Position numbers and translations under genes: made by a program. From the NCBI GenBank assembly GCA_002687175.1, contig NYZP01000034.1, forward strand, positions 27,951-91,950: DNA of 64,000 nucleotides. Reading direction: 5' to 3'. Below are positions 3,441 through 64,000 of the stretch, piece after piece. The stretch is from Parcubacteria group bacterium (GTDB lineage: Bacteria > Patescibacteriota > Patescibacteriia > Buchananbacterales > UBA6539). The notes under the pieces are model-generated. The model saw nothing but the letters and a program-made list of their open reading frames with translations. It made no database searches and was not told the origin of the DNA. Within the stretch, counting starts at the first letter, position 1, and each line of letters begins with the position of its first letter.

Positions 3441-6400
3441 ATGAAATTTAGAAACAAAATTATTTTTCTACTAATTCCCTTGTTGCTGTTTTTAGGGTTA
3501 CTTGGTTTTGGCTTAACAGTTTTTGCCTTAGACTCTTGTCTGCCGACACAAGAGGGAACTACTCGTGATTGTGCTTTGCAAGAAGGTGTTTGTCAGGGTT
3601 CAGTTGAGTGGTGCTTGGGCGGTTTTTGGCAAGGCTGTGGCGCGCCAAATTATGGTGTTAACTATGAACTGTTTGAACTGAGTTGTGATGATACCTTGGA
3701 TAACGACTGTGATGGGTTAACAGACACCGAAAGTGGTATTGAAGATTCTGACTGTTGGTGTACTGTTGATTTTACACTGGCGGAAACCGAGTGTAATGAT
3801 GGTATTGATAATGATGGTGATACATTTTGTGATTTTGCAGGTTGTTGTGATGATGGCTCTGGTGAGCCACAGGCAAGTTGTAGTGGTACTTGGCTAGAAC
3901 CGGATCTTGGTTGTAACTCTGGCCAAGACAACAGCGAACTTAGTGCTAATACTATCTGTGGTAATCTTGTCTGTGAATTTGGGGAATCGTGCGCCGCTGA
4001 CTGTTCAACCGAAGCTTTTTGTAATGACGGGGTAGATAACGAAGAAAATGGCGAGGCTGATTGTGGCGACTCGGCATGCCTGGGTCAAGCTGACGGCACG
4101 GGCAGAATTTGTTGTTCTGGTGATGCCCAATGTGGCGGCTGTCAATACTGTCAACAAGGTCTACTAACAGAAGAGGCTGAATATGGTAATGGATCTACAA
4201 ATTTTATTAATCGTTGTGAGGTTCAAATAAATGGACCAAGTGGACGTTTATGTAATAATGACTGTTCTTTTTGTGATAATGGTTTTTGCACCAACAGAGA
4301 TGAAGGCGATACTACGGAATGTACCAGTGGATTTGTCTGCGATGAGCCTCCATCAGTAACTGATCCACCAACGGCGTCTTGCATATTAGCGATAACACCA
4401 TTTATTGCAACAACTTTTACTTCTCTTGGTATTGAGGCGGTAAATGGTGGAGCCCCTCCCAACCCAAACACTCTTATTATTTCAAATAGCGGAACCGGAA
4501 TTTTAGACTGGACTGCAACCGTAGATGTTCCCTGGCTTTCTTTAAATATTGCCAACGGTGGCAATGGACCAACAGAAGTTATTGTCTCTTACGATATTAA
4601 TGGCATGTCGGTTGGGTCTAATGTTGGCACAATTACTATTACCGACGATACCGCTACAAACGTTCCATTTTATATAACCATTACTTTAACCATTCAAGCA
4701 CCAACTATAGAGTTATCACCAACATTTTTTGAGGTTGAGGCAATGGAAGGTGATACACCAGCCAGCCAAACCTTGACCATTCAAAATAGTGGTGACGCTG
4801 TTTTAAATTGGCTGGCCGAAAATTTACCGGGCTGGCTTACCATTTTGCCATCTGGAGGAACTGTTACTGATGGTAGTTCAGAAAATGTTACTTTATCTTT
4901 TTCAGATTCTTTAATTCCTGATATTTATACTGATACGTTTGATATTTCAGATCCCAATGCCAGTAATGATCCTCAAACTGCAGATGTTGTATTAACCATT
5001 AATTCAGCACCATTACCAGTAATTTCTCTGTCTCAGACAACTTTTAGTAATTCAGCAGTTGAGGGTAGTAGTAATCCTGCTGATGAAATTTTAACTATCA
5101 CTAATAGTGGTGACAGTGGCTCAATCCTTACTTGGAGTTTTAGTGATAGTCCACCAGCTTGGTTAAGTTTTATTGGAGCTACCAGTGGCACATTAGCCCA
5201 AGGTGAGTCGGACAATGTTACCTTAAGATATGATATTTCAACTTTAAATCCAAGTATTAATAATTTTACTTTTGACGTAGAAGATCCAACGGCGCCAATC
5301 AGTCCTCAGACTGTTTCAGTTGATTTAGAAATTACCGCCGTGCCCGTGGCAACTATTTCACTGACTCCAGGTAGTTTTATAGCTAGTGCTGATGAAGGTT
5401 CCTCGCCGGCTAATCAAATTTTAAATATTGAAAATTCTGGTGGCGTTGGTTCCACGCTTACCTGGTCAGTGAGCAATGATCAGAGCTGGTTAAGTTTGTC
5501 ACCAGCTAGCGGCACAATTACTGCACCCGGTTCTACCAATGTTACTTTAAATTATACAACCGAGGGACTGGTTGATGGACCTCACTCAGACACAATTACC
5601 GTTGACGCCCCCGGTGCTACTAACGATCCGCAAACCGCCAGCGTGGATCTCACAATTATAAATGTTCCAGTCACTTTTCTTTTAACAGTTACTACTGATG
5701 GTGGGGGAACCGGCTCAGTTGTAACTGTTCCCTCAGGAGACATTAACTGTCCAGGAGACTGTAATCAAACTTATAACGAAGGTACTTTAGTTGAGTTAGC
5801 CGCTTCACCTGATGGTGGTTCTACTTTTAGGGAGTGGTCTGCTAACTGTGTAGTTAATGGAAATGGCAACTGTGAAGTTACAATGGATGCTGCTAGAGCA
5901 GTAACTGCCACTTTTGATCCTATTACAGAGTGTAATAATGGTAGTGATGATGATCTAGATGGCGACATAGATCTGCTAGACGGTGGTTGTGATGGTCCAT
6001 TAGACAACGATGAAACAAACTGTGGTGATGCCGTTTGTGAGGGTGGGGAATCTTGTTTAGCCGCTAGTTGTGCGGTCGATTGTGTTGAAGACATCCCTGG
6101 TGGTTGTACTACACTTGCCGGTGATGGGCCTGGTTTTTGTGGCAATGAATTTTGTGATCCAGGTGCTGGTGGTACCAGTGATAATGGTTGGATTTGTCAA
6201 CTTCGTGATTTTGATTGTGCTGGAACTTGTGGCCAGTGCACCGGTAGTGGTAGTTGTGAAATTAATCATAATTCTTGTACCGGCCAATGTTCTCAATGTG
6301 TATTTAATTCTGGTCCGGTATCTTATGATTGTGAGGGTGTATTTGACGAGCAAGATACCTATGGTGACCCGGGCAATAACGTTTTATGTAGTGCTGATGA

Positions 6401-7325
6401 AATTTATGTTGGTGGTGATTGTGCTGGTGTACCATGCACCTGTAATAGTATTGGTGTTTGTGTGTCCACTGCTGATACTGATTTAGATGGTCTGGGTGAT
6501 CCTTTTGATGTTTGTCCGTACGACCCAGACAACGATTTTGACGGTGATGGTATTTGTGCGGTTGGTTGTAATACTGGTTCATCACAGTTTGGCTCCAAGA
6601 CTAATGGGTTTATTTGTGATGCTGGCCCAGGCACCGTTGTTTATGACCAATGTCAGGGTGTTGGTAGTTGCGACAATTCTAACAGTTGTTGGGCGGCTTT
6701 TGGGGCCTCTGATTACCTTAATGTTTATTTAAATGGCACACTGGTGGTTGGAAATTTATATTTACCTGAGGTTGGTGGTTATAAAACTGCCGGTGAAATT
6801 ATTGGTAATGGCGGAAATCCTTATCCTGCCCTACCAGTGAAAGTGTACTTTAAGCCAGCTGATTATAATGTAACCAGTGGTGGTTCTGATGATGTTGTCA
6901 CTTTTGAAGGTTTAACTAATACTTGGTGGGACAGAAATATTAGCGGTGTTTTTATGAGTGTTGATGAAAGTGGTTTGTGCGATCATATCGATTTACCACA
7001 GAAGGCAACAGATTTAACCACAACGCCAACTTTGCCAGTAACTTGCTATACTCAAGATGATGCCAGCGATGGTGGTTTCTTAGGACCACCACCAAGTGAT
7101 TGGCAGGAGGCCTCTTTTGATGATACTGACATCGCACTTTGGCAAATTCCACAACCTGGTAATAACGCTTCAGTACCACTGTTATCAATCTCCTCCTCAC
7201 TCTGGGATGAAACTTATTCAATCTGGGGTCGGGAGTATAGTGACTTTCCAGCTACTTGTGGAGATTCGCCAAAATATTGTGAATTTAGCTTCAGTCATAC
7301 TTATTGTCGATCGGAAGTATTTTAA
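3441..7325 (+). CDS. Giant surface protein: signal/TM peptide, Cys-rich DNDxDG repeats, five tandem Ig-like (BACON/HYR-like) domains, an InlB B-repeat-like domain, and C-terminal thrombospondin type-3-like repeats
   Basis: The track ORF 3294..7325 is in a different frame from the upstream gene. The likely true start is the ATG at 3441, giving 'MKFRNKIIFLLIPLLLFLGLLG' (signal/TM), directly after the upstream stop. The motif 'L(T)IxNSGxxxLxWxxxxxxxWLSxxPxSGTxxxGxSxNVTL' recurs five times. 'GGGTGSVVTVPSGDINCPGDCNQTYNEGTLVELAASPDGGSTFREWS' is a divergent InlB B-repeat, and 'DTDLDGLGDPFDVCPYDPDNDFDGDGIC' is TSP3-like. Confidence 0.6.
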   Translation: MKFRNKIIFLLIPLLLFLGLLGFGLTVFALDSCLPTQEGTTRDCALQEGVCQGSVEWCLGGFWQGCGAPNYGVNYELFELSCDDTLDNDCDGLTDTESGIEDSDCWCTVDFTLAETECNDGIDNDGDTFCDFAGCCDDGSGEPQASCSGTWLEPDLGCNSGQDNSELSANTICGNLVCEFGESCAADCSTEAFCNDGVDNEENGEADCGDSACLGQADGTGRICCSGDAQCGGCQYCQQGLLTEEAEYGNGSTNFINRCEVQINGPSGRLCNNDCSFCDNGFCTNRDEGDTTECTSGFVCDEPPSVTDPPTASCILAITPFIATTFTSLGIEAVNGGAPPNPNTLIISNSGTGILDWTATVDVPWLSLNIANGGNGPTEVIVSYDINGMSVGSNVGTITITDDTATNVPFYITITLTIQAPTIELSPTFFEVEAMEGDTPASQTLTIQNSGDAVLNWLAENLPGWLTILPSGGTVTDGSSENVTLSFSDSLIPDIYTDTFDISDPNASNDPQTADVVLTINSAPLPVISLSQTTFSNSAVEGSSNPADEILTITNSGDSGSILTWSFSDSPPAWLSFIGATSGTLAQGESDNVTLRYDISTLNPSINNFTFDVEDPTAPISPQTVSVDLEITAVPVATISLTPGSFIASADEGSSPANQILNIENSGGVGSTLTWSVSNDQSWLSLSPASGTITAPGSTNVTLNYTTEGLVDGPHSDTITVDAPGATNDPQTASVDLTIINVPVTFLLTVTTDGGGTGSVVTVPSGDINCPGDCNQTYNEGTLVELAASPDGGSTFREWSANCVVNGNGNCEVTMDAARAVTATFDPITECNNGSDDDLDGDIDLLDGGCDGPLDNDETNCGDAVCEGGESCLAASCAVDCVEDIPGGCTTLAGDGPGFCGNEFCDPGAGGTSDNGWICQLRDFDCAGTCGQCTGSGSCEINHNSCTGQCSQCVFNSGPVSYDCEGVFDEQDTYGDPGNNVLCSADEIYVGGDCAGVPCTCNSIGVCVSTADTDLDGLGDPFDVCPYDPDNDFDGDGICAVGCNTGSSQFGSKTNGFICDAGPGTVVYDQCQGVGSCDNSNSCWAAFGASDYLNVYLNGTLVVGNLYLPEVGGYKTAGEIIGNGGNPYPALPVKVYFKPADYNVTSGGSDDVVTFEGLTNTWWDRNISGVFMSVDESGLCDHIDLPQKATDLTTTPTLPVTCYTQDDASDGGFLGPPPSDWQEASFDDTDIALWQIPQPGNNASVPLLSISSSLWDETYSIWGREYSDFPATCGDSPKYCEFSFSHTYCRSEVF

Positions 7326-16267: not shown

Positions 16268-16270
16268 GTT
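16251..16270 (+). repeat. Direct repeat A (20/20 identical with 17998-18017): the 3' end of cobO, encoding '...VARKGIED*'
   Basis: 'aggggattgaggattaggtt' recurs 1.73 kb downstream. The second copy still encodes 'VVARKGIED*' but with synonymous codon changes (gcc agg -> gct aga). Confidence 0.8.
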
Positions 16271-16289
16271 GTAGGAGATTATTGTTGAT

Positions 16290-16540
16290 TGGCATTATCA
16301 TCAAGGTTGTCATAAATTTAGTGGCCCAGCCCTGAAGGGCAGGGCTATCGTGTAATTGTTATAAGCAGGTGACGAGAGTAGTCCCGCCGGAGGCGGGGCT
16401 TTATTGTATATCCCTGGACTAAAGGATTGGCCTGGGCGAAGGTGGGTACTGAGGTAGATCCATCCATCATTTTATGGGTACGGGGGGGTTGAGAAGGTTG
16501 GGGTAGGGTTTGAAATAGTAAGGGAGTTGATGTAATATAG
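16290..16540 (+). other. GC-rich, hairpin-dense noncoding segment at the left end of the insertion
   Basis: Hairpins 'gccc(a)gccct-UGAA-gggc(a)gggc' (16323-16344) and 'ccgcc-gga-ggcgg' (16385-16397), followed by a G-rich tract (16473-16512). Confidence 0.4.
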
Positions 16541-16544
16541 ATTT

Positions 16545-17978
16545 ATGGAAAGAGAATTAAATTACAATCCAGAAGCTGAGGTTCGCAAGGAACGCACTTC
16601 TCTAAGGGAAATTTTTACTTTAGCAAAAGGCAAAATAGTTGAAGAGCTAATAAAATTTTTGTCGAAAAAAGATGACGAAAAAGTTGAAGCATATGTTAAA
16701 AAGGTGGGAAAAATGGCTGATCTTAATAGAGCCACTGGAGATTTTTTTCGTTCACTTATACCACAATCCTTAAATCTCCCGCAACGGGAATATGAGCATA
16801 CCGATGAAAGAAATGTATATGAGCATCTTGTTGACAATGCGCAATCTGTCCAACAACGTCGTCATCAACAACCAGAAACTATCTCTGGAGAATCTTATAA
16901 AGATTATGCAGATAATCTAGATGACCCCAGTCTTTCTGAAGCCTCGGAAAAAATCAGTGCAGTAGAGGAATCTGAAACTGGTGGGGTTAAGACTCAAAGT
17001 GCAATAGCGTCATATTCACAGGAAGGTGGAAAGAATGTAGTTAGAGAATTTGTTTATAATAATTTTCATACAATGAAAGATGGCAGAGCAGTTAGTTTAT
17101 CATATGCCGCACTCTTGATCGTAGATATTAAAAGTGGTCAAGGAATCGAATTAAAACAATTACTGCCTACTGGCTATGAATTTGTTCCTTCTCAACTTAA
17201 CGAGAGGACTCTTGAATTAGTCAAGGAGAAGGGAGAATCAAGCTCAAAGCTCATCTCACGTTTAATGCGTCATGACCTTAAGGAATACAGAGGAACGAAA
17301 GAAGCAAAGGACAATTTTGTCCTTGCAGGGAAAAAGGTGGAGTATGGCGATCTAACTGAAAAAGGAGGTATGCTATCTCTCTTACATGAGATTGCTCATA
17401 GCTGGCAAAGGGCTCATGATTTGGCAGAAGGGCGATATAACTTTGAAGATTTTTATAAAGAAGTTGGCCTGGAAGTAGCAGTGTTAAATTCTATCAGGAA
17501 AGAAGTTGAAGCAGGAGAATGGGAGCAAGAAGATTATCAAAACAGAGTTCTACCCGAGACGATAGCTGACCTAAAGAAGATTGGTGTAGAAATTGACGAA
17601 GATTATTTTTACCAGACAGACAGACCTGGTCGAAAAGGAGAAATTCGGATAAGAAGGTTGGGCGAAGAGCTACCTAGTGGTGAGTACTCATATGATCACT
17701 TTTTTATCAAAACTGATAAACTTGCCCCCTTGGTTGATGATTACGCCAGAGAAGAACGAGATGCCTGGGCTCATGCCATTCGAGTTTTGCGTTTCTTAAG
17801 AAAAAAAGGGATTGATCTTGAACCACAGCTTAAGAGCTCAAAAGATTTTAGAGAAATTATTGACCCCGCTTTAGGCTCGTATCAAAAAAGTTTAGACAAG
17901 GAAGTTGAGTTTTCCGCCGAACCTGAAAGTAGAAAATTTCTTCGAAGAAAATCAATTGACCAAGCAGATGCGGTCTGA
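16545..17978 (+). CDS. Hypothetical 477-aa protein with an HExxH motif ('LLHEIAHSW'), possibly metallopeptidase-like, encoded inside the insertion
   Basis: The ORF is intact. I recognise no family fold beyond the HEIAH motif. GC is intermediate to high. Confidence 0.4.
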   Translation: MERELNYNPEAEVRKERTSLREIFTLAKGKIVEELIKFLSKKDDEKVEAYVKKVGKMADLNRATGDFFRSLIPQSLNLPQREYEHTDERNVYEHLVDNAQSVQQRRHQQPETISGESYKDYADNLDDPSLSEASEKISAVEESETGGVKTQSAIASYSQEGGKNVVREFVYNNFHTMKDGRAVSLSYAALLIVDIKSGQGIELKQLLPTGYEFVPSQLNERTLELVKEKGESSSKLISRLMRHDLKEYRGTKEAKDNFVLAGKKVEYGDLTEKGGMLSLLHEIAHSWQRAHDLAEGRYNFEDFYKEVGLEVAVLNSIRKEVEAGEWEQEDYQNRVLPETIADLKKIGVEIDEDYFYQTDRPGRKGEIRIRRLGEELPSGEYSYDHFFIKTDKLAPLVDDYAREERDAWAHAIRVLRFLRKKGIDLEPQLKSSKDFREIIDPALGSYQKSLDKEVEFSAEPESRKFLRRKSIDQADAV

Positions 17979-20547: not shown

Positions 20548-20571
20548 CATATTACCTTAAAAAATAGTTTT

Positions 20572-20760
20572 AATTTCAGGGAAGTGAGGTGTGATTCCTC
20601 CGCTGACCCGCAACTGTGAAACCTCTATCTAAATTAGGTAAGGGGTTAAGCCAGACCACTGAAATTAGAGCTAACTATAATTCACTAAGCTCTTCGAGGT
20701 ACGAGAGTCGGTGATGTCTGATATGGACATTTTCGCTCTCCCTTGAACAGGGAGATTTTT
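20572..20760 (+). promoter_or_regulatory. Cobalamin (AdoCbl) riboswitch with an SD-sequestering terminator-like expression platform
   Basis: 'cagGGAAGtgaGGTGtgAtTCCtccGCTGaCCCGCAACTGTgAA' matches the conserved 5' core of the cobalamin riboswitch. A B12-box-like 'AAGCCAGACCACTG' lies at about 20647-20660. The 3' hairpin 'ctccc ttgaaca gggag' plus U-run (20735-20760) pairs with the 'agggag' SD 9 nt upstream of the ATG at 20766. Confidence 0.7.
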
Positions 20761-33925: not shown

Positions 33926-34909
33926 ATGAATAGAAGTATGCCCGCCAAAGGCGGGTCCGCCTCTGGCGGAAAACAAAAAATTCTAGTGGCCGGTAGTGTA
34001 GCTTATGATCGGATAATGAATTTCCCAGGGTATTTTAAAGATAATATCTTGCCTAATAAAATTCATATCCTAAACGTTTCTTTTTTTATTCAGGATTTAA
34101 AAGAGAGTTTTGGTGGTACTGCCGGTAATATTGTTTATACTCTAGGACTATTAGGTGTTAAGCCAACTCTGTTAGCCAACGTTGGAGCCAAAGATTTTTC
34201 AGTTTATAAAAAATGGTTTCAAAAAAATAAAATTGATATTTCTAAAGTAAAAATTGTTAAAAATCAACAAACTGCCTCAGCATATATAATTACCGATAAG
34301 GCTGATAACCAGATTACTGGATTTTATCCTGGAGCAATGAAAGATCCAATAACTAAGAGTAAAATTGATTTAGCAAAAGTTGGCTTAGCTATTGTATCTC
34401 CTCAGCACCCGGTTGATATGGTAAATCTACCAAAAATTTTTCGAGCAAAAAAAATTCCTTATATATTTGATCCTGGTCAACAAGTAGCCTCACTGTCTGG
34501 TGCTCAATTAAAAAGCGCCATTATTGGCAGCAAGGTTTTAATTGGTAATGATTACGAAATCGCTCTGATACGGAAAAAAACCAGTTTATCTATAAACCAA
34601 CTTCTTAAAAAAACTAATATTTTGATAACCACCTTAGGGGCCAGTGGATCAATGTTGCGACAAGGGAGCAATACAATTAAAATTCCAGCCGCTAAACGAG
34701 CCAATACTCTTGATCCAACTGGTGGGGGCGACGCCTATCGGGCCGGTCTGATTAAAGGGCTAGTAGATGATTTACCTCTACAAAAAGTAGGTCAATTGGC
34801 TACGGTGACAGCTGTTTATTCAGTTGAAAAATATGGCACTCAAGTCCATAAGTTTACCAAGACTGGTTTAGTCAAGAGGTATCGACAAAATTTTAAAGAA
34901 CCTATATAA
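33926..34909 (+). CDS. PfkB-family carbohydrate/nucleoside kinase (likely adenosine kinase) with an N-terminal palindromic-element-encoded insertion
   Basis: 'DPTGGGDAYRAGLIKG' ATP-site motif. N-terminal 'AKGGSASGGK' is encoded by the palindromic unit at 33941-33974. Confidence 0.6.
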   Translation: MNRSMPAKGGSASGGKQKILVAGSVAYDRIMNFPGYFKDNILPNKIHILNVSFFIQDLKESFGGTAGNIVYTLGLLGVKPTLLANVGAKDFSVYKKWFQKNKIDISKVKIVKNQQTASAYIITDKADNQITGFYPGAMKDPITKSKIDLAKVGLAIVSPQHPVDMVNLPKIFRAKKIPYIFDPGQQVASLSGAQLKSAIIGSKVLIGNDYEIALIRKKTSLSINQLLKKTNILITTLGASGSMLRQGSNTIKIPAAKRANTLDPTGGGDAYRAGLIKGLVDDLPLQKVGQLATVTAVYSVEKYGTQVHKFTKTGLVKRYRQNFKEPI

Positions 34910-34940: not shown

Positions 34941-36203
34941 ATGCCACACGACGTTACTTCCCTCAAATTAGCACCTCAAGGTAAAAAAAGAATTGAATGG
35001 GCAGCTCAAGACATGCCCGTCTTAGAAGAGATAAAAGATCGTTTTACAAAGTCAAAACCCTTAAAAGGTTTAAAAGTTTCTTGTTGCTTGCACGTTACTG
35101 CAGAAACTGCCAATTTAGTTCGGGTGCTAAAGGCCGGTGGCGCTAACGTACTTTTGTGTGCTTCCAATCCACTGTCCACCCAAGATGATGTGGCGGCAGC
35201 TTTAGTTAAAAGTTATGGGATTAAAGTTTATGCCAGAACTGGTGAGGATCGGACAACTTATTATAAACATTTAGAAGCGGCTCTGAAACATAAGCCGGAA
35301 GTAACCATGGATGATGGCGCTGATTTACTGTCATTACTTCACTCCAATAAATACCAAAAACAAGCCCTACAAGTCAAAGGTTCTATGGAAGAAACCACCA
35401 CTGGGGTTATTCGTCTGCAGGCTATGGAAAAAGCGGAAAAATTGATGGTCCCGATTATTGCAGTTAACGATGCTAAAACAAAAAATATGTTTGATAATCG
35501 GTATGGCACCGGACAATCAACTTTGGACGGAATAATCAGAGCAACCGATCTTTTACTGGCTGGTAAAACAGTAGTGGTGGTAGGTTATGGTTGGTGCGGT
35601 CGGGGATTTGCCATGCGCGCTCGAGGGATGGGGGCCAATGTTATTGTAACTGAAGTTGATCAGATTAAAGGCCTAGAAGCCGTAATGGACGGTTTTCGAG
35701 TGATGCCAATGAGTCGAGCCGCCAGCGTGGGAGATTTATTCTGCACCTTAACTGGCGATATTCATGTTTTAAGAAAAGAGCATTTTAAAAAAATGAAAGA
35801 CGGAGCGACTATTTGTAATTCAGGCCATTTTGATGTGGAAATCGATATTCCGGCACTTAAAAAATTGTCTCGTAAATTTAGAAAAAATGTTCGTGATTTT
35901 GTTGATGAATATACCTTGCCCGGCAACAGAAGAATTTATTTACTAGGCCAGGGGAGACTGATCAATTTAGCCGCGGCCGAAGGTCACCCAGCCTCGGTTA
36001 TGGATATGAGTTTTTCAACACAGGTTTTAGCGACCGAGTATGTCTTGAAAAATCACAAGAAATTATTAAACAAAGTTTATTACGTTCCAGAAAAAATTGA
36101 AAATTGGATTGCCAAAGCAAAGTTAAAGTCTTTTGGTATCAGTATTGATAAGTTAACCAAAGAGCAGGAGAAGTACTTAGCCAGCTGGGATATCGGAACA
36201 TAG
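34941..36203 (+). CDS. ahcY: S-adenosyl-L-homocysteine hydrolase
   Basis: NAD site '[28 protein letters not shown]'. 420 aa. Confidence 0.8.
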
Positions 36204-36277
36204 ATAATGAGACCCTGAAACAAGTTCAGGGTCTCATTAAGAGAAATCAACATAGCGCCCCTTTAACGGGGGCGCTT

Positions 36278-36796
36278 TTGCTTAAGCAAAATATGATAAA
36301 AGAACGAAAATTAAATAGATATTCAAACTATAATTATAATTTACCAGGTTATTATTTTATTACGATATGTGTCCAGGATCGTATAAAGTATTTTGGAAAA
36401 ATTGGTGATGGTCGGATGATTTTAAATAAATACGGAAAAATTGCAATTAAATATTTAATGAAAATCCCAAATTTTTATACGAACGTTGCCATTGATGAAT
36501 TTGTGATAATACCAAATCATATTCACATTATTATTGAAATTAAATCCGTAGGGACAGAACAATGTTCTGTCCCTACGGGGGTCAAAAATATTAATTATGG
36601 TTTATTGTCAAAGGTGGTTAAATCCTTTAAAGACGTTACAACCAAAGAAATTCACGGTGCATTGAATGATTACCATTTTCAATGGCAACGTTCCTTTTAT
36701 GATCATATTATTCGAGATGAAAATGGTTTATATAATATTAGGCAATATATAATTAATAATCCTTCGCAGTGGAACAGAGACAGAAATAATGTTTAA
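36278..36796 (+). mobile_element. IS200/IS605-like Y1 (HuH) transposase, REP-associated tyrosine transposase (RAYT)-like
   Basis: HuH 'NHIHIIIE' and catalytic-Tyr region 'RSFYDHIIRDE'. GC-rich hairpins lie upstream at 36212-36270. A 33-bp perfect palindrome sits inside the CDS at 36546-36578. Confidence 0.6.
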
Positions 36797-40170: not shown

Positions 40171-40522
40171 GTCATCCCTGCGAAAGCAGGGATCCAGAAA
40201 TACTATGAGAAGTTACTATACATATATTTTAGCCAGTAAGAGAAATGGAACGCTTTATATTGGTGTTACTAATGATTTAGTCAGGAGAGTTAATGAGCAC
40301 AAAGAAGGTTTGATTAAAGGTTTTACCAGAAAATATAAAGTTAAAATGCTAGTTTATTATGAAGAATTTGATGACATTGGCTTGGCAATTCAAAGGGAGA
40401 AAAATTTGAAGAAGTGGAAGCGCAATTGGAAGTTACTATTAATTGAAAACTTTAATTCTAACTGGGAGGATTTGTACTTCAAGTTATTTTAAATGCTGGA
40501 TCCCTGCTTTCGCAGGGATGAC
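40171..40522 (+). mobile_element. Compact 352-bp mini-element: a GIY-YIG nuclease ORF bracketed by 27-bp perfect inverted-repeat hairpins
   Basis: IR-L 'gtcatccctgcgaaagcagggatccag' (40171-97) and IR-R 'ctggatccctgctttcgcagggatgac' (40496-522). Each is also a GAAA-tetraloop hairpin. Confidence 0.6.
40205..40492 (+). CDS. Small GIY-YIG endonuclease (UPF0213-like)
   Basis: 'YYTYILASKRNGTLYIGVTNDLVRRVNEH' GIY-YIG motif. The true start is the ATG at 40205. Confidence 0.7.
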   Translation: MRSYYTYILASKRNGTLYIGVTNDLVRRVNEHKEGLIKGFTRKYKVKMLVYYEEFDDIGLAIQREKNLKKWKRNWKLLLIENFNSNWEDLYFKLF

Positions 40523-62036: not shown

Positions 62037-62438
62037 ATGACAGACCCAATTGCTGACATGCTTACAAGAATAAGAAACGCCCAGGCCGTTAGAAAGCCAG
62101 AGGTTGTTTTACCATTTTCAAAATTAAAAATGGCTGTCGCGGAAATTTTAAAAGAACAAGATTATATTAGAAAGATTGAAAAAATTGAAAAAGGTAATAA
62201 TGGTGGTAACCATGAAGAGCTGAAGTTAATTTTGAAATATCAAGGTAGTCAACCAGCCATTTCCATGTTAAAGAAAATAAGTAAACCGGGCCGTCGAATC
62301 TATGTTACGGCTGACAAATTACCAGTAGTTTTAAATAATTTTGGTATTGCCATTATTTCTACTTCTAATGGTCTAATGACCAATAAAGAAGCCAAAAAGA
62401 AAAAATTGGGTGGCGAAGTAATTTGTGAAATTCATTAA
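62037..62438 (+). CDS. rpsH: Ribosomal protein S8
   Basis: 'MTDPIADMLTRIRNA'. Confidence 0.95.
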   Translation: MTDPIADMLTRIRNAQAVRKPEVVLPFSKLKMAVAEILKEQDYIRKIEKIEKGNNGGNHEELKLILKYQGSQPAISMLKKISKPGRRIYVTADKLPVVLNNFGIAIISTSNGLMTNKEAKKKKLGGEVICEIH

Positions 62439-62991
62439 TATTATGAGTAGAGTAGGCAAACAACCAATAAAGATTCCCGAAGGCGTTGACGTTAAAGTTG
62501 AAGATTTTAACGTGAAAGTTAAAGGACCAAAAGGTGAGTTAAATCAACAAGTTCATCGCTTAGTTAATATTGATCAAAAAGATAATGAATTAATGGTGTC
62601 GGTAAAAAATCCAGAGGAAAAATTACAAAAATCTTTATGGGGATTATTCCAAAGATTAATTGTCAACATGATTACTGGTGTTACTGAAGGATATTCAAAA
62701 AAATTGGAAGTCAATGGTGTTGGCTATAAGGCAGCCGTCGCTGGCGACATTTTGAATTTGCAGCTTGGCTATTCTCATCCAATTGATTATAAAATTCCTG
62801 AAGGTATTAAAGTTGAGGTGGAAAAAAATGTTATTACTGTTTCCGGAATTGATAAACAACAAGTTGGCCAAATTTCCGCAGAGATTAGAGCAAAAAGAAA
62901 ACCAGAACCTTACAAAGGTAAAGGTATTAAATATGCTGACGAGGTGATCAGAAGAAAAGTTGGTAAGACCGCTTCCAAAGGGGCTGAATAA
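62425..62991 (+). CDS. rplF: Ribosomal protein L6
   Basis: 'SRVGKQPIKIPEGV'. Confidence 0.95.
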   Translation: MKFINIMSRVGKQPIKIPEGVDVKVEDFNVKVKGPKGELNQQVHRLVNIDQKDNELMVSVKNPEEKLQKSLWGLFQRLIVNMITGVTEGYSKKLEVNGVGYKAAVAGDILNLQLGYSHPIDYKIPEGIKVEVEKNVITVSGIDKQQVGQISAEIRAKRKPEPYKGKGIKYADEVIRRKVGKTASKGAE

Positions 62992-63002
62992 AAATTATTA
63001 CT

Positions 63003-63392
63003 ATGGCTAATAAAGAAAAAATTAAATTAGAGAAGAAAATTAGACGTAAAGGCCGAGTGCGGGTTAAAATTTCGGGAACCGCCAAGAAACCAAGGCTTAA
63101 TGTTTTTCGTAGTTTAAAACATATTTTTGTTCAATTAATTGATGATCAGAAAAGTGTTACGGTAGTTTCAGTTAAAGACTCCGAGATTTCCGCCAAAGGC
63201 GGATCCGCCTCTGGCGGAAAAGAAAGTAAAGTCAAAAAAACTGACATTGCATTTAAAGTAGGGGAACTAGTTGCTGTTAAAGCTAAAGAAAAAGGAATCA
63301 CCGAAATTGTTTTTGATAAATCTAGTAATAAATATCATGGCCGCATTAAAGCTGTAGCTGAAGGAGCCAGAAAAGGCGGCTTAATTTTTTAA
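63003..63392 (+). CDS. rplR: Ribosomal protein L18 carrying an in-frame palindromic-element insertion ('AKGGSASGGK')
   Basis: L18 core 'RLNVFRSLKHIFVQLIDD' and 'KVGELVAVKAKEKGITEIVFD'. The palindromic unit at 63188-63221 is identical in sequence family to 33941-33974. Confidence 0.85.
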   Translation: MANKEKIKLEKKIRRKGRVRVKISGTAKKPRLNVFRSLKHIFVQLIDDQKSVTVVSVKDSEISAKGGSASGGKESKVKKTDIAFKVGELVAVKAKEKGITEIVFDKSSNKYHGRIKAVAEGARKGGLIF

Positions 63393-63396
63393 AATT

Positions 63397-63960
63397 ATGG
63401 CAGATAATAAAAAAACCAGTAAATTTGGTAATGATAAAAGAGGTGGACGAGTAGTTGATCGTGAGTTTGATCAGGTTATCGTTGATATTGCCCGAGTGAC
63501 TCGAGTAATGGCTGGAGGCAAAAGAATGAGGTTTCGTGCTTGTGTGGCCATTGGTGACCGAAAAGGTAGAGTAGCCCAAGCCGTGGCAAAAGGAGCAGAT
63601 GTTACCTTGGCGGTTAATAAAGCAGTCGCTAAAGCTAAAAAGGTGATGATAACTGTACCAATCGTTAATGGTACCATTCCTCATCGAGTTGATATCAAGC
63701 TTGGTGCCGCTAAACTTTTGATCAAGCCGGCTCCTAAAGGAACAGGAATTATTGCTGGCGGAGCTGTGAGAACAGTTCTAGATTTGGCTGGTATTGCCGA
63801 TGTGGTGGCAAAAATATTAGGAACTAATAATAAGATTAACAACGTTAAAGCAACCATTGAAGCATTAAAAAGATTGAAACGAGTTGAGAAAACACCGGCT
63901 CAAGTTAAAGAAGAGCAGAAAAAAGTTGTTGAAACTGTTGAAAAAACCAAATCAGTATAA
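63397..63960 (+). CDS. rpsE: Ribosomal protein S5
   Basis: 'VVDIARVTRVMAGGKRMRFRACVAIGD'. Confidence 0.95.
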   Translation: MADNKKTSKFGNDKRGGRVVDREFDQVIVDIARVTRVMAGGKRMRFRACVAIGDRKGRVAQAVAKGADVTLAVNKAVAKAKKVMITVPIVNGTIPHRVDIKLGAAKLLIKPAPKGTGIIAGGAVRTVLDLAGIADVVAKILGTNNKINNVKATIEALKRLKRVEKTPAQVKEEQKKVVETVEKTKSV

Positions 63961-63963
63961 AAT

Positions 63964-64000
63964 ATGTCTGAACTATCCCTACACAATTTAAAGGTAAATA
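63964..64000 (+). CDS. rplO: 3'-partial ORF, probably ribosomal protein L15 (no L30 gene between rpsE and this ORF)
   Basis: 'MSELSLHNLKVN' resembles L15 N-termini, and the position follows rpsE. Confidence 0.35.
   Translation, partial: MSELSLHNLKVN

What the first reader, a model, noticed from the sequence alone, without database searches (positions are those of the whole stretch)
63188..63221. Second copy of the in-frame palindromic unit, inside rplR
See the finding at 33941. This copy encodes 'SAKGGSASGGKE' within L18 between the N-terminal and core regions. It is recorded separately because tolerance of an insertion in an r-protein is notable in itself.
Basis: seen in the sequence. Interest (0 to 1): 0.5.

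Follow-up and report, generated by a model that had tools for sequence, protein, structure and literature searches.

The report
Tiny double-hairpin insertion inside ribosomal L18
A 30-base GC-rich palindrome has inserted in frame into the ribosomal protein L18 gene of a marine Parcubacteria genome; it belongs to an apparently undescribed family of tiny double-hairpin elements found across many uncultivated bacterial phyla.

Summary
Window 63189-63218 (TCCGCCAAAGGCGGATCCGCCTCTGGCGGA) consists of two adjacent 15-nt hairpins, each with a 6-bp stem and a 3-nt loop. It lies in frame in rplR and encodes SAKGGSASGG. The closest L18 relatives lack exactly these 10 residues. An empty site reads GAA ATT|AAA GAC, against GAG ATT|30 nt|AAA GAA here, with no target duplication. 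AlphaFold places the insert in a low-confidence loop of an otherwise normal uL18 fold, and this loop is the most length-variable part of L18 in relatives.

The unit is not private to this genome. Of 80 confidently coding copies, 63 are read as SAxGGSAxGG (p=1e-16). Flanks show a T-N^N-A site preference. Distant lineages have been hit independently in the same loops of L18 and of Mfd. No neighbouring gene recurs. Inherited copies decay like their flanks.

The best reading is a non-autonomous, selfish mini-element. It is translated and tolerated as a flexible loop, like Rickettsia palindromic elements and mitochondrial GC clusters, but smaller and cross-phylum. How it moves is unknown. No Rfam family or paper in the searched library matches it.

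The parts
63003..63392 (+). rplR (ribosomal protein uL18), 129 aa, the host gene
   Evidence: Pfam PF00861 E=1.1e-35. PDB uL18 chains match at E about 1e-29. The gene lies in an L5-S14-S8-L6-L18-S5 operon. The AF2 model matches ribosome-bound uL18 with TM 0.72-0.80.
63189..63218 (+). 30-nt double-hairpin unit, in frame, encoding S63-G72 = SAKGGSASGG
   Evidence: It is exactly the segment missing from the 119-aa relatives and from the empty site in L123.
63189..63203 (+). hairpin 1: TCCGCC-AAA-GGCGGA
   Evidence: Perfect 6-bp stem with a 3-nt loop. The outer pair covaries across the family: T-A 88, C-G 25.
63204..63218 (+). hairpin 2: TCCGCC-TCT-GGCGGA
   Evidence: Together with hairpin 1 it can also form one long hairpin, -24.2 kcal/mol as RNA, z=-5.1.
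63186..63188 (+). 5' flank of the insertion site (ATT, Ile62)
   Evidence: The empty site in L123 reads GAA ATT|AAA GAC. In the family, the base two positions 5' of the 30-mer is T in 100 of 124 copies.
63219..63221 (+). 3' flank of the insertion site (AAA, Lys73)
   Evidence: In the family, the base two positions 3' of the 30-mer is A in 98 of 124 copies.
33941..33970 (+). sister copy CCCGCC-AAA-GGCGGG + TCCGCC-TCT-GGCGGA, encoding PAKGGSASGG at the N-terminus of a PfkB-family kinase (ORF 33926..34909)
   Evidence: It has the same two loops as the rplR copy. The outer pair of hairpin 1 is changed on both sides (T..A to C..G). NCBI starts this protein at the ATG at 33938, directly before the unit.

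Best explanation
The segment is one copy of a very small, non-autonomous, GC-rich 'double-hairpin' DNA element of 30 nt: two 15-nt hairpins that together form a near-perfect palindrome. It inserted into rplR between Ile62 (ATT) and the following Lys codon (AAA). It added exactly 30 nt and made no target-site duplication.

Shown:
- It is an insertion.
- The same element occurs in unrelated genes and in intergenic DNA of more than 120 species from several phyla.
- Its flanks show a T-N^N-A preference.
- No particular gene travels with it.
- Inherited copies decay.

Inferred:
- The element is selfish DNA that an enzyme encoded elsewhere, or a hairpin-dependent replication/repair process, copies into new sites.
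- Copies inside genes persist only where the product is harmless. The length is a multiple of three and no frame contains a stop. In the commonest frame the unit becomes a flexible Ser/Ala/Gly loop (SAxGGSAxGG), and surviving copies lie in surface loops or inter-domain linkers.
- In uL18 the unit is therefore translated into a disordered loop extension and has no function of its own.

The transposition chemistry is not known. Recognition of single-stranded hairpins by an HUH/Y1-type enzyme is only a guess.
For: **Insertion, exact 30 nt, no duplication**
- In L18, filled and empty sites align codon for codon.
- In Mfd, the filled site CCG AAA AAT|30 nt|AAA AAC matches the empty site CCG AAA AAC|AAA AAA, and 47 of the 51 closest Mfd lack the unit.

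**Dispersed family**
- My tally of the record titles gives 53 CPR, 17 Omnitrophota, 13 PVC, 11 labelled 'uncultured Gammaproteobacteria', 5 FCB-group and 4 Chloroflexota.
- Host genes include DnaE, DnaG, UvrA, UvrB, Mfd, RecG and PheT.

**Evidence that the unit is translated**
- 63 of 80 coding copies are in the SAxGGSAxGG frame, against 7 and 10 in the other two (p=1e-16).
- The K/E...S orientation outnumbers R/G...F by 23 to 9, p=0.02.

**Independent hits**
- P0001, P0103 and P0069 carry the unit in the same L18 loop. Outside the loop they are only 43-51% identical, and each has closer unit-free relatives.
- Mfd was hit twice, one codon apart, by two variants.

**Structure of the element**
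- The outer pair covaries.
- Variants with changes on both sides of a pair exist: CCCTCC/GGAGGG, CCCGCT/AGCGGG, and CAGCC/GGCTG in all four arms.

**Decay after insertion**
- In an orthologous Mfd trio the unit is 87-93% identical against 76-91% for the flanks, with stem-breaking changes.

**Other points**
- No protein family recurs in more than 5 of the 120 loci.
- In uL18, pLDDT is below 50 for residues 67-73 inside a core that is mostly above 90.
- The two window copies share both loops, although the loops vary widely across the family.
Against: - Copy number per genome is low. There are 2 copies in 64 kb here and a handful per MAG among the hits, which is unusual for a self-propagating repeat.
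- No mobilising enzyme, and no presence/absence polymorphism between near-identical strains, has been seen, so mobility is inferred from distribution only.
- Conservation of one 30-nt sequence across phyla needs either frequent horizontal transfer or a conserved recognising machine. Neither was shown.
- 7 of 125 copies have a 5-nt direct repeat around a 32-nt version of the unit (0.5 expected), which the 'no duplication' model does not explain.
- Translation of the unit is inferred from frame statistics, not observed.
- Coding calls came from a simple longest-ORF rule.
- The search pattern fixed the stems, so stem conservation cannot be read from the 124 exact copies.
Confidence: 0.62

Rival explanations
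1. The same element spreads without a dedicated transposase. A break or a stalled fork is repaired by copying a hairpin-forming unit from another copy (ectopic templated repair or template switching), helped by T/A microhomology at the flanks. In this view the element is a by-product of repair rather than a transposon.
For: - There is no target duplication, and the flank preference T-N^N-A is palindromic.
- No linked gene was found.
- Copy number per genome is low.
- Some copies have short direct repeats or lie in short tandem repeats, as slippage would give.
Against: It does not explain how the identical 30-nt sequence first reaches genomes of different phyla. Insertions are exactly 30 nt with clean ends in every case examined, which is more orderly than expected of repair accidents.
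Confidence: 0.2
2. The hairpin is a functional nucleic-acid signal kept in place by selection. Candidates are an mRNA structure that slows ribosomes or marks an RNase site in the spc operon transcript, or a binding site for a DNA- or RNA-binding protein.
For: - The predicted structure is very stable: -24.2 kcal/mol as RNA, z=-5.1, and it also folds as DNA.
- The stem pair covaries.
- The L121 copy keeps pairing through a G-U.
Against: - Copies occur in unrelated genes, at any position, and in intergenic DNA.
- Most L18 genes lack it.
- Inherited copies accumulate stem-breaking changes at the rate of their flanks.
- There is no Rfam match.
- T runs precede and A runs follow the hairpin, so it is not a terminator on either strand.
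Confidence: 0.08
3. The peptide is what matters. SAxGGSAxGG would be a selected flexible linker that arose convergently or was shuffled as a protein module, and the DNA palindrome would be incidental.
For: There is a strong bias for the Gly/Ser/Ala frame and for the hydrophilic orientation. In FCB-group bacteria the unit lies at fixed loops of the T9SS C-terminal domain.
Against: - Codons are invariant across phyla (always TCC GCC nnA GGC GGA ...), and the DNA is palindromic.
- 17 of 80 coding copies use the other two frames, and about a third of copies are not confidently coding.
- A peptide under selection would show synonymous variation.
Confidence: 0.04
4. The unit is not translated. Ribosomes hop over it, as with the 'byp' GC-rich elements of Magnusiomyces mitochondria, or it is removed from the RNA.
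For: It is a stable GC-rich hairpin inside a coding region of an AT-rich genome, which is the setting known for byp elements (my own knowledge of Lang et al. 2014, cited within PMC4478555).
Against: A bypassed element would have no reason to prefer one reading frame or one orientation, yet 63 of 80 copies use one frame. The length is always a multiple of three, and no copy inside an ORF carries an in-frame stop.
Confidence: 0.03
5. Artefact or ancestral sequence: an assembly error, or an original L18 segment lost in relatives.
For: None beyond the low copy number.
Against: The gene is identical in four independent assemblies. The unit is absent from all the closest relatives and present in only two distant ones.
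Confidence: 0.02

Closest known systems
Rickettsia palindromic elements (RPE; Ogata et al. 2000, as summarised in PMC10969869)
   Same: Both are dispersed palindromic repeats that insert in frame into unrelated housekeeping genes and are translated as extra peptide segments compatible with the fold. Both are non-autonomous, with the mobilising activity unknown.
   Different: RPEs are about 100-150 bp, form ten families and are confined to Rickettsia. This unit is 30 nt with a different sequence, and one and the same sequence occurs in many phyla.
Mitochondrial GC clusters and double-hairpin elements (yeast GC42 and the 48-nt cluster in var1/rps3; Allomyces DHEs; PMC4478555)
   Same: Both are short GC-rich hairpin elements in AT-rich genomes, with conserved stems and variable loops. 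Both show evidence of horizontal spread and can lie inside a ribosomal-protein gene. The two-adjacent-hairpin architecture is as in DHEs.
   Different: Yeast clusters are flanked by AG or ACT duplications and are mostly intergenic. Here there is no duplication, and about two thirds of copies are in ORFs. This family is bacterial and cross-phylum, not organellar.
REP / REPIN elements mobilised by RAYT transposases (PMC3733652)
   Same: Both are 20-40-nt GC-rich palindromes. REPINs are likewise doublets of hairpin-forming units, and a trans-acting enzyme mobilises them.
   Different: REPs are extragenic, carry a GTAG or CGTC tag and occur in tens to hundreds of copies per genome, with species-specific sequence. 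This unit has no such tag, is mostly intragenic, is low-copy and is the same across phyla.
Very small dispersed repeats of heterocystous cyanobacteria (SDR; Elhai et al. 2008; from my own knowledge, not re-read here)
   Same: Both are mobile-looking units of only about 21-30 nt that can lie inside conserved genes and nest inside larger repeats. Here the unit nests in a 185-nt repeat in L008.
   Different: The sequence and the lineages differ. SDRs are not reported as predominantly in-frame coding insertions.
[quoted passage not shown]
   Same: Both are coding DNA with dyad symmetry that is patchily distributed across distant microbes.
   Different: PARCELs are tandem arrays of a 25-residue amphipathic motif in proteins of unknown function. 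This is a single 10-residue Gly/Ser/Ala unit inserted into ordinary genes.

Membership tests
Ribosomal protein uL18 (Pfam PF00861), host gene | Sequence match to the family profile above the curated cut-off | tested here: met
   122.9 bits against a cut-off of 27.8, E=1.1e-35, covering residues 8-129.
Ribosomal protein uL18 (Pfam PF00861), host gene | uL18 fold and position in the operon | tested here: met
   The AF2 model has mean pLDDT 88.6 and TM 0.72-0.80 to ribosome-bound uL18 chains. The gene lies between L6 and S5.
Rickettsia palindromic elements | Dispersed palindromic repeat inserted in frame in unrelated ORFs | tested here: met
Rickettsia palindromic elements | Length about 100-150 bp, sequence of one of the RPE families, Rickettsia host | tested here: not met
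   The unit is 30 nt with an unrelated sequence, in a Parcubacteria MAG.
REP/REPIN (RAYT-associated) | Short GC-rich imperfect palindrome, often as a doublet | tested here: met
REP/REPIN (RAYT-associated) | Extragenic location | tested here: not met
   80 of 127 copies are confidently inside long ORFs. Both window copies are in ORFs.
REP/REPIN (RAYT-associated) | Conserved GTAG or CGTC tetranucleotide at one end | tested here: not met
   The flank and unit consensus T-n-TCCGCC...GGCGGA-n-A has no such tag.
REP/REPIN (RAYT-associated) | RAYT (Y1 transposase) gene in the same genome | not tested
   Only 8-kb pieces of the host genomes were held. No family recurs near the units, but RAYT genes need not be adjacent.
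MITE | Terminal inverted repeats plus a target-site duplication | tested here: not met
   Filled and empty sites in L18 and Mfd show no duplication. Only 7 of 125 copies have a 5-nt flanking repeat.
Mitochondrial GC clusters / double-hairpin elements | GC-rich hairpin(s) in an AT-rich genome, conserved stems, variable loops | tested here: met
   The window is 33-46% GC. About 20 different first-loop and 15 second-loop sequences were seen.
Mitochondrial GC clusters / double-hairpin elements | Short flanking direct repeat (AG/ACT in yeast) | tested here: not met
Translational bypass ('byp') elements | Not decoded, hence indifferent to reading frame | tested here: not met
   Frame bias of 63:7:10. 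This is indirect evidence.
Intrinsic terminator | GC-rich hairpin followed by a T run | tested here: not met
   No terminator-like site in 62400-64000. In the family, T precedes and A follows the hairpin on both strands.
Any Rfam family | Covariance-model match | tested here: not met
   Only chance-level hits at E of 0.45 or higher. Nothing at gathering score at either copy.

The most novel reading that the evidence does not exclude
The unit is an active, cross-phylum mobile element of only 30 nt. It would be among the smallest mobile elements known. An as-yet unidentified, horizontally shared enzyme that recognises the two CCGCC/GGCGG hairpins would insert it blunt, without duplication, at T-N^N-A sites. 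It would be continually re-seeding coding regions of ultra-small uncultivated bacteria (CPR, Omnitrophota) and their neighbours. This would make it a new class of transposable 'nano-element' and a marker of gene flow between these phyla.
Probability: 0.3. Interest if true: 0.75.

Novelty: new variant of a known kind. Interest (0 to 1): 0.58.

Why it matters
In-frame selfish palindromes are textbook only for Rickettsia and for some mitochondria. Here the same behaviour appears with a much smaller unit that is identical across CPR, Omnitrophota, PVC and other phyla.

- Such units add 10-residue loops to essential proteins: uL18, DnaE, DnaG, UvrA, UvrB, Mfd and PheT.
- They can mislead alignments and start-codon calls. 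The kinase here is annotated as starting right at the unit.
- They raise similarity scores between unrelated homologs. The two distant L18 proteins reached the top-120 list only because they share the unit.
- Repeated independent hits at the same loops give a natural map of where proteins tolerate insertions.
- If the element is truly mobile, its enzyme and its route between phyla are unknown and worth finding.

Tried and rejected
- **Rfam.** A permissive search around the unit and a gathering-score search over the whole window gave no family.
- **Literature.** I searched by sequence and peptide strings, by CPR/Patescibacteria plus palindrome terms, and by in-frame palindromic elements. Nothing describes this unit. 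One search failed on a term-length limit.
- **Decayed copies in the window.** None with up to 8 mismatches.
- **Single 15-nt hairpins as the basic unit.** Rejected. In the loci most 'singles' are the intact half of a decayed double.
- **General target-site duplication.** Rejected, apart from an unexplained minority.
- **A linked transposase or other recurrent neighbour.** All-against-all BLAST of 2408 ORFs from the 120 loci found none shared by more than 5 loci.
- **Phage carriage.** Only 5 hits in 2.9 million viral contigs. I did not examine these further.
- **L084, L085 and L088 as orthologous copies.** Rejected. Only about 10 nt of flank are alike.
- **Strain-level variants without the unit.** I looked in the 90% clusters of L18 and of the kinase and found none.
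- **Terminator function.** Rejected.

Full report
**1. The observation**

Window 63189-63218 reads TCCGCCAAAGGCGGATCCGCCTCTGGCGGA. It consists of two adjacent 15-nt hairpins, each with a perfect 6-bp stem and a 3-nt loop. Together they form a near-perfect 30-nt palindrome centred on GGATCC. The unit starts exactly at codon 63 of the ORF 63003..63392 and encodes SAKGGSASGG.

The ORF is ribosomal protein uL18:
- Pfam PF00861 matches at E=1.1e-35.
- PDB uL18 chains match at E about 1e-29.
- It lies in the usual L5-S14-S8-L6-L18-S5 gene order.

The second copy, at 33941-33970, differs only in the outer pair of the first hairpin, where T..A has become C..G, a change on both sides. It follows an ATG of a PfkB-family kinase ORF directly.

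The two copies are far beyond chance. No match is expected in shuffles, and no further copy exists in the window even with 8 mismatches allowed. The rplR gene with its unit is 100% identical in three other independent metagenome assemblies, one of them from Tara Oceans. The genome is a marine 'Parcubacteria group' MAG from a 0.1-0.22 um size fraction.

**2. It is an insertion**

PDB uL18 sequences align with an 11-residue gap at the unit. Among the 120 best L18 homologs out of 5.8 billion proteins, the closest ones are 119 aa long and 72-76% identical outside the loop. They lack exactly SAKGGSASGG.

At DNA level the sites line up codon for codon:
- Filled site here: GAC TCC GAG ATT | 30 nt | AAA GAA AGT.
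- Empty site of P0004 (L123): GAC GCT GAA ATT | AAA GAC GCC.

The gain is exactly 30 nt and nothing is duplicated.

I repeated the test on an unrelated host gene, Mfd of a Giovannonibacteria MAG:
- Filled: CCG AAA AAT | 30 nt | AAA AAC.
- Empty (77% identical relative): CCG AAA AAC | AAA AAA.
- 47 of the 51 closest Mfd lack the unit.

**3. Where it lies in uL18**

An AlphaFold2 model built with 53 homologs has mean pLDDT 88.6. Only residues 67-73 fall below 50. The insert lies between a short helix (60-65) and the long helix 79-96, that is, inside the globular domain and not at the N-terminal tail. The model superposes on ribosome-bound uL18 with TM 0.72-0.80.

The same loop is the length-variable part of L18 in these lineages. 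About 20 of the 120 homologs have other extra residues there. Two of those that I looked at, P0002 and P0039, carry other GC-rich hairpin-forming inserts after the same E-I/V-K. I could not compute contacts with 5S or 23S rRNA, so solvent exposure is inferred, not shown.

**4. The unit is a widespread family**

I scanned one genome per species (185,579 species) for CCGCCNNNGGCGGNTCCGCCNNNGGCGG. My tally of the record titles:

| Group | Loci |
|---|---|
| CPR/Patescibacteria | 53 |
| Omnitrophota | 17 |
| PVC (Kiritimatiellae, Verrucomicrobiota, Lentisphaerae, Planctomycetota) | 13 |
| Labelled 'uncultured Gammaproteobacteria' | 11 |
| Ignavibacteriota/Bacteroidota | 5 |
| Chloroflexota | 4 |
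| Unclassified | 11 |
| Others | 6 |

One hit, in a 75% GC Nocardioides, is probably chance. Only 5 hits came from 2.9 million viral contigs.

The consensus is T-n-[T CCGCC nnA GGCGG A T CCGCC Tnn GGCGG A]-n-A. Two positions in each loop are free: about 20 first-loop and 15 second-loop variants were seen. The outer pair of hairpin 1 covaries: T-A 88, C-G 25, T-G 4, C-A 5.

Variants with changes on both sides of a stem pair exist: CCCTCC/GGAGGG, CCCGCT/AGCGGG, and CAGCC/GGCTG in all four arms. Other double-hairpin families with different stems (CACCC...GGGTG) also exist. The double unit, not the single hairpin, is the basic form.

**5. Behaviour in genes**

Of 127 copies, 80 lie in an ORF that is clearly the longest at that place. 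Of these:
- 63 are read as SAxGGSAxGG.
- 7 are read as PPxADPPxAE.
- 10 are read as RxRRIRLxRK.

The bias has p=1e-16. No frame of the unit contains a stop. A TT^AA-type target would allow two of the three phases, so the bias is best explained by selection on the translated product. Within the favoured frame, the orientation giving K/E...S outnumbers the one giving R/G...F by 23 to 9, p=0.02.

Hosts include DnaE, DnaG, UvrA, UvrB, Mfd, RecG, PheT (two units), ArsA, HsdR and an amylase. The unit usually lies between Pfam domains. In FCB-group bacteria it lies at two fixed F^N junctions of the T9SS C-terminal sorting domain.

**6. Repeated independent hits**

Three of the 120 L18 proteins carry the unit in the same loop:
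- P0001 (this window).
- P0103: GAA ATT | TCCGCCAAAGGCGGATCTGCCTCAGGCGGA | AAA GAG, the identical codon junction.
- P0069, from a GC-rich CPR: AAG AAG | unit | AAG GCA.

Outside the loop these three are only 43-51% identical. Each has many closer unit-free relatives. The simplest reading is three separate gains.

Mfd was hit a second time in another lineage, one codon upstream, by a variant unit, CCGGCC CTA GGCCGG TCCGCC GCG GGCGGA. A site preference (T-N^N-A; here ATT^AAA, AAT^AAA, ATG^AAA, TTT^AAT) combined with a selection filter would give such hot spots.

**7. Selfish rather than functional**

Several results point to a selfish element rather than a signal kept in place:
- In the three orthologous Mfd genes that inherited the variant unit, the unit is 87-93% identical and the flanks 76-91%. 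The changes break stems (GGC to GAC; TCC GCC to TCG GTC), so the hairpins are not protected once inserted. This rests on a single trio.
- No protein family recurs in more than 5 of the 120 loci.
- In a Kiritimatiellae MAG the unit is nested in a 185-nt intergenic repeat.
- T precedes and A follows the hairpins on both strands, the reverse of a terminator, and no terminator-like site is found.
- The RNA and DNA folds are strong: -24.2 and -15.4 kcal/mol, z about -5. That follows from palindromy alone.

**8. What remains open**

- The mechanism of spread is unknown.
- Copy number per genome is low: 2 in this 64-kb window, and 2-5 exact copies seen per MAG. This fits poorly with a vigorous transposon.
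- A minority of copies (7 of 125, with 0.5 expected) have a 5-nt direct repeat around a 32-nt version of the unit. Some unrelated loci share about 8 nt of flank.
- Identity of the sequence across phyla calls for horizontal transfer or a shared recognising enzyme. Neither was shown.
- I found no description of the unit in Rfam or in the searchable literature. That is not proof that none exists.

**9. Comparison and verdict**

The unit behaves like Rickettsia palindromic elements, which insert in frame and are tolerated by the fold. It also behaves like mitochondrial GC clusters and double-hairpin elements, which have conserved stems and variable loops, and one of which lies in a ribosomal-protein gene. 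It fails the defining features of each family: size, sequence, host range, flanking duplication, the REP tags and extragenic location.

I file it as a new variant of a known kind. The tolerance by uL18 is explained by the loop's variability. The more interesting result is the cross-phylum family and its recurrent hits at the same protein loops.

Noticed in passing
window 16268-16544, hairpins at 16328-16346 and 16383-16397: A 280-nt intergenic stretch upstream of ORF 16545..17978 holds a single hairpin, CCCGCC-gga-GGCGGG. Its stem is the same as the first hairpin of the kinase copy. GCTTTATTG follows it, and a second hairpin, AGCCCTG-aaggg-CAGGGCT, precedes it. No Rfam family reaches its gathering score there. 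It could be a terminator or a leader structure.
   Followed up: partly
window 20553-20717 (+): AdoCbl (cobalamin) riboswitch, Rfam RF01482, 57.6 bits.
   Followed up: no
window 40174-40193 and 40500-40519: The same 8-bp-stem hairpin, ATCCCTGC/GCAGGGAT, occurs twice 326 nt apart. The loops, gaaa and tttc, are reverse complements of each other, so the two are an inverted pair bracketing a short segment.
   Followed up: no
window 36205-36239 and 36546-36578: Two long perfect palindromes with 15-bp arms lie just downstream of ORF 34941..36203: TAATGAGACCCTGAA...TTCAGGGTCTCATTA and CCGTAGGGACAGAAC-aat-GTTCTGTCCCTACGG.
   Followed up: no
L132:1051-1440 (P0002) and L133:1140-1553 (P0039): Two other CPR L18 genes carry different GC-rich, hairpin-forming in-frame inserts after the same E-I/V-K. 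One encodes AGSPRSLQAAGS. The other is a 57-nt insert folding at -41.9 kcal/mol. The loop is therefore a general hot spot for GC-rich palindromes.
   Followed up: partly
L121:5061-5088 and L088:756-783: Double hairpins of another sequence family (CACCC-nnn-GGGTG). One lies in the rplR-rpsE spacer of the genome whose L18 also carries the unit.
   Followed up: no
L008:4569-4752 and 6390-6572: In a Kiritimatiellae MAG the unit lies inside a 185-nt intergenic repeat, next to another palindromic repeat, GTCATTCCGAGCGTAGCGAGGAATC. Spurious ORFs over that repeat read '...HSERSEES...'. The same flanks recur in L003, L072 and, in a Verrucomicrobia MAG, L039.
   Followed up: partly
L041, L060, L101 (Ignavibacteriota); L055, L030 (Bacteroidota): In FCB-group bacteria the unit lies within the T9SS C-terminal sorting domain at two fixed junctions...VQF|unit|N/D..LASGVYFY and ...NPF|unit|NP... 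In L030 a TGA in the first loop ends the ORF.
   Followed up: partly
window 33926-33940: The kinase ORF has two in-frame ATGs (33926 and 33938). NCBI's protein MAF14285.1 starts at the second, directly before the unit, so the unit may have landed right after the original start codon (MKQKILVAGS... without it).
   Followed up: partly
one search hit list: P0103 and P0069 reached the top-120 L18 hits only because they share the 10-residue unit with the query. Outside the loop they rank 118th and 119th of 119. Such units can distort similarity searches and trees.
   Followed up: yes
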